The translations under genes and the position numbers were made by a program. The notes beneath the pieces are model-generated. The model ran no database searches and had not been told where the DNA came from. It saw only the letters and a list, made by a program, of their open reading frames with translations. This document shows, one piece after another, positions 36,857 through 37,117 of a stretch of 37,535 nucleotides of DNA. Origin of the DNA: a virus. Its lineage: Duplodnaviria; Heunggongvirae; Uroviricota; Caudoviricetes. How positions within the stretch are numbered: position 1 is the first letter of the stretch; every line of letters begins with the position of its first letter. The stretch lies in the IMG/VR virus record IMGVR_UViG_2681813154_000004. One strand, 5' to 3'.

Positions 36857-37057
36857 TTATTTAATCAATGAGCTCTGAAAGGCATGAAGTCTATCATCCA
36901 AGTCTCAATTGATCGATACTTGCTATGTCTGATGAGACAAAACTGAGACACATAAGGCCTCACAATGGCTTGCAAGGCTTTACATGTTTTGATGTGGTGG
37001 GACGTGTGAGCGCAGTGTTGATGGGATAATCCTTTGAATTACAAGCGGATTCTTATA

Positions 37058-37103
37058 ATTCGTAATGCGAAGGTCGTAGGTTCGACTCCTATTATCGGCA
37101 CCA
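37058..37103 (+). other. att core: 3'-terminal 46 nt of tRNA-Thr(CGU) (thrW-type), not a complete tRNA gene
   Basis: ATTCGTAATGCGAAGGTCGTAGGTTCGACTCCTATTATCGGCACCA matches anticodon loop through CCA; no matching 5' acceptor/D-arm upstream. Confidence 0.7.
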
Positions 37104-37117
37104 TTTAAATCAATAAG

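What the first reader, a model, noticed from the sequence alone, without database searches (positions are those of the whole stretch)
36857..37117. att core (3' 46 nt of tRNA-Thr) flanked by phage DNA on both sides: attP-like junction
The last 46 nt of a thrW-type tRNA-Thr(CGU) lie at 37058-37103 with no intact 5' half, between gtrA on the left and the integrase 3' end on the right. The order int - att - gtrA - gtrB - gtrC is the unintegrated arrangement of serotype-converting phages, whereas a simple prophage would separate int and gtr to opposite ends. The window therefore derives from a circular/excised or virion-derived genome, a tandem prophage, or an assembly joining both prophage ends.
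Basis: partly seen in the sequence, partly recalled or inferred. Interest (0 to 1): 0.5.

Follow-up and report, generated by a model that had tools for sequence, protein, structure and literature searches.

The report
Prophage end abutting dead integrase stub
The tRNA fragment is the ordinary right-hand attachment site of an integrated Shigella serotype-converting prophage (SfI type) that happens to sit next to the IS600-truncated integrase stub of an older, different prophage, an arrangement already described for Shigella flexneri, so it is not a free-phage attP.

Summary
Window 37058-37103 is exactly the last 46 nt of thrW tRNA-Thr(CGU). No whole tRNA is present. gtrA lies to the left and the 3' end of an integrase gene to the right.

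The window is in prophage order: early genes, late genes, gtrI-gtrB-gtrA, att. From 13386 to 37121 it is colinear with phage SfI (97.6-100% identical).

The integrase on the right is not SfI's. It is a 118-codon C-terminal stub of a 386-aa SfX/HK75/HK542-type integrase: 100% identical to that type, 61% to SfI Int. An IS600 end cuts it at 37477. Parentage switches inside the core.

The two arms carry non-cognate putative Int arm repeats: GGGAC type on the left, GTGCC type on the right.

At least six finished S. flexneri chromosomes carry the identical gtrA-core-stub-IS600 junction. Strain 8401 has the same junction with the integrase intact, followed by a lambdoid prophage. Sun et al. 2011 PCR-sequenced the same SfI-SfX junction in a tandem lysogen.

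Best reading: this is the attR of an SfI-like prophage fused to the relic of an earlier lysogeny at thrW. It is already known and of low interest.

The parts
34054..35574 (-). gtrI, the type-I specific glucosyltransferase (506 aa)
   Evidence: Lies in the stretch colinear with SfI JX509734 (99.99% over window 22772-37121) and corresponds to its annotated gtrI. The exact protein is present in many S. flexneri and E. coli genomes.
35577..36497 (-). gtrB, bactoprenol glucosyltransferase (306 aa)
   Evidence: PF00535 at 7e-31. Corresponds to the annotated SfI gtrB.
36494..36856 (-). gtrA, flippase (120 aa)
   Evidence: PF04138 at 2e-14. The region is 99.9% identical to the annotated SfI gtrA region; the exact protein is found in many public genomes.
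36857..37057 (.). P arm of the SfI/SfV/SfII-type attachment site, i.e. the phage-derived left arm of attR. It holds putative P22/SfI-type Int arm repeats: TGGGAC at 36998-37003, and a degenerate TGAGACA pair about 50 nt further left.
   Evidence: 210 of 210 nt are identical to the SfI attP left arm. The motifs sit at positions homologous to the GGGAC repeats of P22 attP. That they bind Int is inferred.
37058..37103 (+). att core: the last 46 nt of thrW tRNA-Thr(CGU), with no 5' half
   Evidence: Exact suffix of thrW. Identical in SfI, SfX, HK542 and P22 attP. No tRNA is called here. Single copy in the window.
37104..37117 (.). Spacer between the core and the stop codon of the int stub; start of the SfX/HK75-type P' arm. 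Base 37106 is T as in the X type; SfI has A.
   Evidence: Alignment A1. Right-arm comparison with Sun 2011 panel F.
37118..37476 (-). C-terminal stub (codons 269-386) of a 386-aa SfX/HK75/HK542-type tyrosine integrase. It overlaps the X-type P' arm, which carries putative arm repeats TTGTGCC at 37151-37157 and 37162-37168.
   Evidence: 100% aa identity to HK542 and Sf8401 Int over residues 269-386, against 61% to SfI Int. 98.4-98.7% nt identity to SfX, HK542 and the strain 8401 copy. The first catalytic Arg (TGLRRSN, 211-217) and all N-terminal domains are missing. PF00589 matches positions 101-170 of 172 only.
37477..37535 (-). Terminal 59 nt of an IS600 copy (the end downstream of the transposase genes). 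It truncates the integrase, and the window ends inside it.
   Evidence: 97-98.5% identity in the listed hits to many IS600 copies annotated 'IS3-like element IS600 family transposase'. In L011, L016, L017, L028 and L050 the same position continues into a full IS600 with 100-aa and 272-aa ORFs.
37118..37492 (-). 124-aa ORF called as a gene in public genomes. It is a fusion ORF with a TTG start inside the IS600 end, reading into the int stub.
   Evidence: ORF list. The exact protein is found in 8 contigs, always next to gtrA.
1..170 (-). 5' part of the eaE-like early gene. This is the left limit of the window and lies inside the prophage; the prophage's own yfdT, xis, int and attL would be further left.
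   Evidence: Window position 1 corresponds to SfIV 25146, inside SfIVp31. In six contigs that carry the identical neighbouring gene, the order is HD-eaE-yfdT-(xis)-int(387 aa; called as 372 aa in one)-proA.

Best explanation
The 261-nt interval is the right prophage junction (attR) of an integrated SfI-type, gtrI-carrying serotype-converting prophage at the thrW locus of a Shigella flexneri-like chromosome.

Composition of the junction. The left arm and the core come from the phage attP. The sequence to the right of the core is not the phage's own P' arm. It is what was already resident next to thrW: the P' arm and 3' end of an SfX/HK75-type integrase gene from an earlier prophage. IS600 later truncated that gene at codon 268, and the rest was lost.

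How it arose (inferred). An SfX-type element integrated at thrW, leaving thrW-core-intX. An SfI-like phage then used that intact thrW (the attL of the resident element) as its attB. This gave thrW-core-int(own)...gtrI-gtrB-gtrA-core-intX. The crossover lay inside the 46-nt core.

Function (inferred by analogy with lambda and P22). The site can still serve as attR for excision of the SfI-like prophage. Excision needs the P arm and the core here, and the cognate P' arm at the prophage's own attL. It cannot serve as an attP. The stub encodes no active recombinase. The 46-nt tRNA piece is not a functional tRNA.
For: Shown:
- Prophage gene order, with 13386-37121 colinear with SfI at 97.6-100% identity.
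- Parentage switches inside the core. The window is identical to SfI up to 37105 and to the X type from 37058 onward.
- The int stub is 100% identical to X-type Int residues 269-386 and 61% to SfI Int. It lacks Arg-I and the N-terminal domains.
- An IS600 end lies at 37477.
- Arm motifs are chimeric: GGGAC type on the left arm as in SfI and P22, GTGCC type on the right arm as in SfX and HK542, in the same +48/+59 geometry.
- The identical gtrA-core-stub-IS600 junction (99.5-100% nt) occurs in finished S. flexneri chromosomes CP012735, CP012137, CP097828, CP130061, LR213452 and CP055132 (also CP034060), with different gtrC genes.
- Strain 8401 (CP000266) has SfV gtrA-core followed by an intact 386-aa X-type int, xis and lambdoid early genes.
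- With the same P arm and core, E. coli genomes show other right flanks: yagP'-paoDCBA, a P4-like integrase island, and a MarR/autotransporter island.
- Sun et al. 2011 (PMC3306764) PCR-sequenced the same gtrA(SfI)-core-intX junction in a tandem SfI+SfX lysogen. They showed that SfI integrates at the attL of SfX, and that the attB region of a serotype Y strain is itself followed by a putative phage int and IS600.
- The early-gene module at the window's left end is linked elsewhere to a 387-aa SfV/SfI-type int next to thrW-proA.
Against: - The prophage's own int, xis and attL are outside the window, so the canonical left junction is inferred, not seen.
- In CP012137, CP012735 and the near-identical IMG/VR contig L050, the gtr block plus junction is inverted relative to proA-thrW. 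It is followed by IS600-IS911-eaE-yfdT-xis. The real history therefore includes IS-mediated inversions and may involve more than two elements.
- The arm-type sites are inferred from repeat geometry and conservation. They have not been tested.
- Whether the SfI-like prophage integrated next to an already truncated stub, or the truncation came later, is unknown.
Confidence: 0.9

Rival explanations
1. Genuine attP. The window is a circularly permuted, excised or virion-derived genome of a mosaic phage that carries the SfI gtr cluster together with its own SfX-type integrase.
For: The order int-core-gtrA-gtrB-gtrC is the free-phage order. The window length of 37.5 kb is close to a full SfI genome of 38.4 kb. 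The early region is mosaic relative to SfI, so module exchange does occur.
Against: - The int is a 118-codon stub cut by IS600 and cannot support integration.
- The window ends do not overlap. One end is IS600 and the other is inside eaE.
- The P arm carries SfI/P22-type repeats and no X-type repeats, unlike true X-type attPs.
- The same junction lies inside finished chromosomes.
- The early module at the left end is linked to a 387-aa int elsewhere.
Confidence: 0.02
2. Assembly artefact. attR (gtrA-core-host flank) and an attL (thrW-core-intX) were mis-joined through the 64-nt identical stretch formed by the core plus 18 nt.
For: Both arm families share 37058-37121 almost exactly. Both window ends carry about 59-60 nt of sequence that is repeated in related genomes, which suggests a short-read de Bruijn contig.
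Against: The identical junction occurs in at least six independent finished chromosomes, in several draft contigs and metagenomes. It was obtained by PCR and Sanger sequencing in strain 036_1d. Base 37106 is X-type, consistent with a clean crossover inside the core.
Confidence: 0.03
3. Live tandem double lysogen. A substantially complete second prophage follows the IS600, for example an SfX-like phage carrying gtrX as in serotype 1d. The junction would then be the boundary between two present-day prophages.
For: Tandem SfI+SfX lysogens exist, with this same junction. Strain 8401 has an intact X-type int followed by at least 9.7 kb of lambdoid genes after SfV gtrA. Nothing beyond 59 nt of IS600 is visible in the window.
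Against: The N-terminal 268 codons of X-type int are absent within 10 kb in every S. flexneri genome that carries the stub. In those genomes, and in L050 (99.99% identical to the window over 9.6 kb), the IS600 is followed by IS911 and an inverted eaE-yfdT-xis module, not by an X-type prophage.
Confidence: 0.05

Closest known systems
SfI-SfX inter-prophage junction in S. flexneri 036_1d (Sun et al. 2011, BMC Microbiol 11:269, Additional file 1 panel F)
   Same: gtrA(SfI), the 201-nt P arm, the 46-nt thrW core and the X-type right arm (TTACCTCGCATTTAA) leading into intX. The alignment runs end to end with window 36844-37132. The mechanism is also the same: SfI integrates at the attL of a resident X-type element.
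   Different: In the window, intX is reduced to codons 269-386 by IS600. No second prophage is visible. The first base or two after the core differ from the machine-read PDF text, which also contains obvious read errors.
SHI-O / thrW serotype-conversion island of finished S. flexneri genomes (e.g. CP012735, CP012137, LR213452)
   Same: The gtrA-core-int stub (124-aa ORF)-IS600 junction is identical at 99.5-100% nt.
   Different: In most of those genomes the converting prophage is largely deleted or rearranged by IS600/IS911. The window still has a complete-looking late region and most of the early region.
attP of phages SfI, SfV, SfII and SfIV (P22-type Int, 387 aa)
   Same: The left arm and core are identical. 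The gtrA-int spacer is 261 nt in both.
   Different: The right arm and int are of another family, and the cognate GGGAC repeats at +49/+60 are missing. The site is therefore not a member of this family.
attP of SfX, HK75, HK542 and mEpX2 (386-aa Int)
   Same: The core, right arm and int 3' end are 98.4-99% identical, including TTGTGCC repeats at +48 and +59.
   Different: The left arm lacks the X-type repeats at -125 and -73, and the int is truncated. The site is therefore not a member of this family.
S. flexneri 5b strain 8401 (CP000266): SfV remnant followed by an X-type prophage
   Same: The same junction at 99.25% over window 35614-37476, in a chromosome.
   Different: There the X-type int is intact (386 aa) and is followed by xis and lambdoid early genes. 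It appears to be the state before IS600 insertion.

Membership tests
Cognate phage attP (free, circular or virion genome of a thrW-integrating converting phage) | Core identical to the 3' end of thrW | tested here: met
   46 of 46 nt.
Cognate phage attP (free, circular or virion genome of a thrW-integrating converting phage) | Core followed by the phage's own complete int and xis | tested here: not met
   Only codons 269-386 remain, then IS600. The type differs from SfI Int (61% aa identity).
Cognate phage attP (free, circular or virion genome of a thrW-integrating converting phage) | The same family of Int arm-type repeats on both arms | tested here: not met
   GGGAC type on the left and GTGCC type on the right. 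True attPs of each type carry their own motif on both arms. The motifs are putative.
Cognate phage attP (free, circular or virion genome of a thrW-integrating converting phage) | Sequence ends that can be joined into a circle or cos-ended genome with int-xis continuing into the early genes | tested here: not met
   The right end is IS600 and the left end is inside eaE. There is no overlap between them.
attR of an integrated SfI-type prophage | Left arm and core identical to the phage attP P arm, next to gtrA at the end of the late region | tested here: met
   210 of 210 nt plus the core. The window is colinear with SfI from 13386 to 37121.
attR of an integrated SfI-type prophage | Sequence right of the core is not the phage's own P' arm | tested here: met
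   Diverges from SfI at 37106 and after 37121.
attR of an integrated SfI-type prophage | Matching attL (complete thrW followed by the prophage's own int) at the other end of the prophage | not testable with these tools
   It lies outside the window. Linkage of the left-end module to a 387-aa int next to proA in other genomes is indirect support.
Inter-prophage junction of tandem lysogens at thrW (Sun et al. 2011) | P arm of phage 1, then the core, then the P' arm and int of a different phage 2 | tested here: met
Inter-prophage junction of tandem lysogens at thrW (Sun et al. 2011) | A second prophage present downstream | tested here: inconclusive
   The window ends 59 nt into IS600. Related genomes show only debris, whereas strain 8401 shows a real second prophage.
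tRNA-Thr gene (thrW) | A complete cloverleaf of about 76 nt | tested here: not met
   ARAGORN finds 0 genes and Rfam gives no hit. The 30 nt upstream are unrelated to the tRNA.
IS600 (IS3 family) | Terminal sequence identical to known IS600 copies, continuing into orfA/orfB | tested here: met
   The 59-nt end is 97-100% identical to IS600 copies. Continuation into the 100-aa and 272-aa ORFs is seen in L011, L028 and L050 but lies outside the window.

The most novel reading that the evidence does not exclude
The 124-aa fusion ORF (TTG start in the IS600 end, reading into the integrase C-terminal subdomain that keeps HxxR and the catalytic Tyr) and the retained X-type arm repeats might not be inert. 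The conserved stub/IS600 scar could act as a fixed landing pad or decoy. It might bias which converting phages can integrate or excise at thrW, and in what order, and so constrain which S. flexneri serotype combinations can arise.
Probability: 0.04. Interest if true: 0.45.

Novelty: already known. Interest (0 to 1): 0.1.

Why it matters
The main value is for annotation. An int-att-gtr adjacency in a Shigella or E. coli contig should not by itself be read as evidence for an excised or circular phage. The thrW site accumulates prophages and their debris in series, so a new prophage's attR commonly abuts an older integrase gene.

Recognising the stub and the IS600 end avoids three errors: mis-calling prophage boundaries, mis-calling 'complete circular' phage genomes, and annotating a 124-aa 'integrase' gene.

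The case also illustrates the known mechanism by which serotype-converting modules stack at one tRNA locus. It adds no new biology.

Tried and rejected
1. A complete or partial tRNA call at the junction. ARAGORN and Rfam found none.
2. The circular-genome idea. The window ends do not overlap, and there is no second core or second IS600 end in the window.
3. The idea that the adjacent int is SfI's own. Rejected by alignment and by 61% aa identity.
4. The idea that IS2 interrupts the int at the same place as in the SfX record U82084. Rejected: U82084 continues past the window's breakpoint, and the window's insertion is IS600.
5. A search for the missing N-terminal part of the X-type int near the stub in related genomes. 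It is absent.
6. An attempt to extend the near-identical IMG/VR contig (L050) with a second pattern scan. This returned more than 120 unrelated SfV-like loci and not the target contig, so it was a dead end.
7. A simple promoter scan of the spacer found no sigma-70-like site. The three terminator-like hairpins were not pursued.
8. A literature search for experimentally defined P22 or SfX arm-type sites found nothing usable in the held library. The arm sites therefore remain inferred.
9. No homology search over the large protein databases or structure prediction was needed.

Full report
**1. Checking the observation**

The sequence at 37058-37103 is ATTCGTAATGCGAAGGTCGTAGGTTCGACTCCTATTATCGGCACCA. 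It is an exact match to the last 46 nt of a complete 76-nt tRNA-Thr(cgt) gene next to proA in an E. coli chromosome (ARAGORN on L009; comparison). The 30 nt upstream do not resemble the 5' half of the tRNA.

ARAGORN finds no tRNA in the whole window. Rfam finds nothing in 36700-37300 at E<=1. The core occurs once in the window even with three mismatches allowed, and none of 100 shuffles gave a match.

To the left lie gtrA (36494-36856, PF04138), gtrB (PF00535) and gtrI, all on the minus strand. The region is 99.9-100% identical to phage SfI. To the right, the 3' end of an integrase gene starts at 37118 (PF00589). The 261-nt spacer has the length reported for the SfI attP region (Sun et al. 2013, PMC3636060).

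**2. What the window is**

Window 13386-37121 is colinear with SfI JX509734, covering the lysis genes, then SfI 1-21294 (terminase through tail, gtrI, gtrB, gtrA and the core). Identity is 97.6-100%.

Window 1-13385 is not SfI-like. It matches the early regions of SfIV, SfV and E. coli phages PhiR29 at 97-98%.

The order is early genes, late genes, gtr, att. That is the integrated (prophage) permutation, not the cos-to-cos virion order.

Position 1 falls inside the eaE-like gene (SfIV p31). In SfIV, SfV and PhiR29 this gene lies roughly 0.5-0.9 kb beyond the 5' end of int and about 1.9 kb from the core. Six E. coli or Shigella contigs carry a protein identical to the neighbouring gene (window 161-697). 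In all six the order continues eaE-yfdT-(xis)-int-proA-proB; the int is 387 aa in five and is called as 372 aa in one. The prophage's own integrase is therefore most likely the 387-aa P22/SfV/SfI type, lying just beyond the left edge. This is an inference.

**3. The integrase next to the core is a foreign, dead stub**

Identity to SfI, SfV, SfII and SfIV stops at 37121, with a first mismatch at 37106. From 37058 to 37476 the window is 98.4-99% identical to the int 3' ends of SfX (U82084), HK75, HK542 and mEpX2. Parentage therefore switches inside the 46-nt core.

The translated stub equals residues 269-386 of the 386-aa HK542 integrase (100%). It is only 61% identical to SfI Int. The two full-length integrases share 56% identity.

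The stub keeps the HxxR box and the RYAHL tyrosine. It lacks the first catalytic arginine (TGLRRSN, 211-217) and the whole arm-binding and core-binding N-terminal part. Pfam matches only profile positions 101-170 of 172.

At 37477 the integrase homology is replaced by TGAGGTGTACTGGCAATAGCGG.... This is the end of IS600, with hundreds of copies at 97-100% identity annotated as the IS600 family. The window ends 59 nt into it.

The 124-aa ORF at 37118-37492 starts with TTG inside the IS end. It is a fusion ORF that public annotations call as a gene.

**4. The arms are chimeric**

Alignment of the attP regions of SfI, P22, HK542 and SfX with the window shows a lambda-like layout of short direct repeats.
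- In P22 and SfI the repeat is (T)GGGAC. It lies at +49 and +60 in the P' arm and at -60 in the P arm; P22 has further copies at -125 and -114.
- In SfX and HK542 the repeat at the homologous places is TTGTGCC, at +48, +59, -73 and -125.
- The window has the GGGAC-type set on its left arm (36998-37003, plus a degenerate TGAGACA pair). It has the GTGCC-type set on its right arm (37151-37157 and 37162-37168).

That these are Int arm-type sites is an inference from geometry, conservation and analogy with lambda and P22. If it is right, the junction cannot be a cognate attP for either integrase. It is still adequate as an attR for the left-hand prophage, because the cognate P' arm needed for excision sits at that prophage's own attL.

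**5. Related sequences**

Looking up the exact GtrA, GtrI and 124-aa stub proteins gave finished chromosomes. The gtrA-core-stub-IS600 junction is 99.5-100% identical to the window in S. flexneri CP012735, CP012137, CP097828, CP130061, LR213452, CP055132 and CP034060. It also occurs in several draft contigs, gut metagenome contigs and five IMG/VR contigs. It occurs with different type-specific gtr genes: gtrI, a 486-aa gtrII-like gene and a 437-aa one. The stub is thus a fixed feature of the locus, not of one phage.

In strain 8401 (CP000266), SfV gtrA and the core are followed by an intact 386-aa X-type int, xis and at least 9.7 kb of lambdoid early genes (N, sieB, ral, recT). This is a natural tandem arrangement and the apparent state before IS600 insertion.

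In E. coli the same P arm and core are followed by other sequences:
- yagP'-paoDCBA-yagU, preceded by a 69-nt stretch that is 84% identical to the X-type right arm (a degenerate scar);
- a P4-like integrase island;
- a MarR/autotransporter island.

The left arm travels with the phage. The right arm is whatever was resident.

**6. Literature**

Sun et al. 2011 (PMC3306764) infected a serotype Y strain with SfX and then SfI. They showed by PCR and sequencing that SfI integrates at the attL of the SfX prophage, immediately upstream of it.

Their Additional file 1, panel F, gives the junction gtrA(SfI)-core-intX. It aligns end to end with window 36844-37132, including the X-type right arm. The few differences are mostly shared by all panels and look like PDF reading errors.

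Panel A and the legend of their Figure 2 show that even the 'empty' attB of strain 036 is followed by a putative phage int and IS600. An integrase remnant as the host-side flank is therefore normal in this species. Nie et al. 2006 (PMC1550401) describe the region as the IS-scrambled SHI-O island.

**7. Mechanism and its limits**

Shown:
- the composition of the junction;
- the switch of parentage inside the core;
- the truncation by IS600;
- the chromosomal occurrence of the junction.

Inferred:
- sequential integration, with the X-type element first and the SfI-like phage then using the resident element's attL as attB;
- retained competence of the site as attR;
- the identity of the arm sites;
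- the identity and position of the prophage's own int.

Complication: in CP012137 and CP012735 the gtr block plus junction is inverted relative to proA-thrW and separated from it by IS600, IS911 and an eaE-yfdT-xis-int module. In L050 (99.99% identical to window 27960-37535) the junction is followed by the same IS600-IS911-eaE-yfdT-xis series, though proA-thrW is not within the locus. The LR213452-type layout can be derived from this arrangement by one further IS600-mediated inversion and deletion. The locus history therefore includes IS-driven inversions. The window's strain probably carries a second copy of the left-end module beyond the IS600.

Window 1-60 is identical to that second eaE copy, with the first mismatch at position 61. 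The right end carries 59 nt of IS600. Both window ends thus look like k-1 overlaps into repeats, which suggests that the window is a whole short-read contig. This is an inference.

**8. Rivals**

- A true attP of a circular or virion genome is contradicted by the dead int, the non-cognate arms, the non-overlapping ends and the chromosomal copies.
- A mis-assembly through the shared 64 nt is contradicted by many independent finished genomes and by PCR sequencing.
- A live second prophage beyond the IS600 cannot be excluded from the window alone. It is not seen in any related genome that carries the stub.

**9. Verdict**

The structure is already known (Sun 2011; SHI-O). Interest is low. The practical lesson concerns annotation of prophage boundaries at tRNA hot spots.

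Noticed in passing
window 1-13385: The early and regulatory region is not that of the SfI reference, which is lambda-like. It matches SfIV, SfV and E. coli phages PhiR29_1/2 at 97-98%. This prophage is therefore a mosaic: SfI lysis, late and gtrI modules combined with an SfV/SfIV-type early module.
   Followed up: partly
window 10469-13228: Three cargo-like genes sit between the Q antiterminator and the lysis genes: a lipocalin (Blc-like, PF08212), a DUF1722/2-thiouracil desulfurase protein (PF04463 and PF08349) and an AraC-type regulator (PF12833). The first two are also seen next to Q in an E. coli prophage (L035).
   Followed up: partly
window 1-60 and 37477-37535: Both window ends carry about 59-60 nt that are repeated elsewhere in related genomes: a second eaE copy on the left and IS600 on the right. 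This is what a de Bruijn contig bounded by repeats looks like, so the window is probably a complete short-read contig.
   Followed up: partly
L017 (CP012137), L016 (CP012735), L050 (IMG/VR), L028 (LR213452): In these genomes the gtr block plus junction is flanked by IS600-IS911-eaE-yfdT-xis(-int-thrW-proA). In L016/L017 it is inverted relative to thrW. The LR213452-type layout can be derived by a further IS600-mediated inversion and deletion. The thrW locus appears to hold remnants of at least three elements.
   Followed up: partly
L011/L016 (CP012735), locus L016 2620-4605: A second chimeric junction in the same genome: an O-acetyltransferase gene (390 aa, Acyl_transf_3), then the 46-nt thrW core, then a 154-aa C-terminal stub of an SfI/SfII-type integrase (96% identity) cut by IS600. 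It has the same anatomy as the finding, with different partners.
   Followed up: partly
L004 6705-6772, and the same position in L006, L009, L010, L014, L015, L031-L033: In E. coli chromosomes, the 69 nt after the attR core are 83-84% identical to the SfX/HK75-type right arm and int 3' end, just before a truncated LysR-type gene (yagP'). This looks like an ancient degenerate scar of an X-type element at the E. coli thrW site.
   Followed up: partly
L008 and L026 (E. coli), upstream of gtrA: The SfI/SfV-like gtr prophage is followed directly after the core by a P4-like integrase (404 aa, Arm-DNA-bind_3), AlpA and a D5-type primase. This is another kind of tandem occupancy of thrW.
   Followed up: no
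window 36857-37057 versus P22 21005-21292 (L171): The P22 gtrA upstream region has an extra stretch of about 95 nt, absent from the SfI-type arm. That stretch holds the annotated gtr promoter and several GATC sites. The simple promoter scan found no sigma-70-like site in the window's spacer.
   Followed up: no
window 37118-37492 (-): The 124-aa 'integrase' ORF called in public annotations starts with TTG inside the IS600 terminal sequence. It is a fusion artefact of the insertion.
   Followed up: yes
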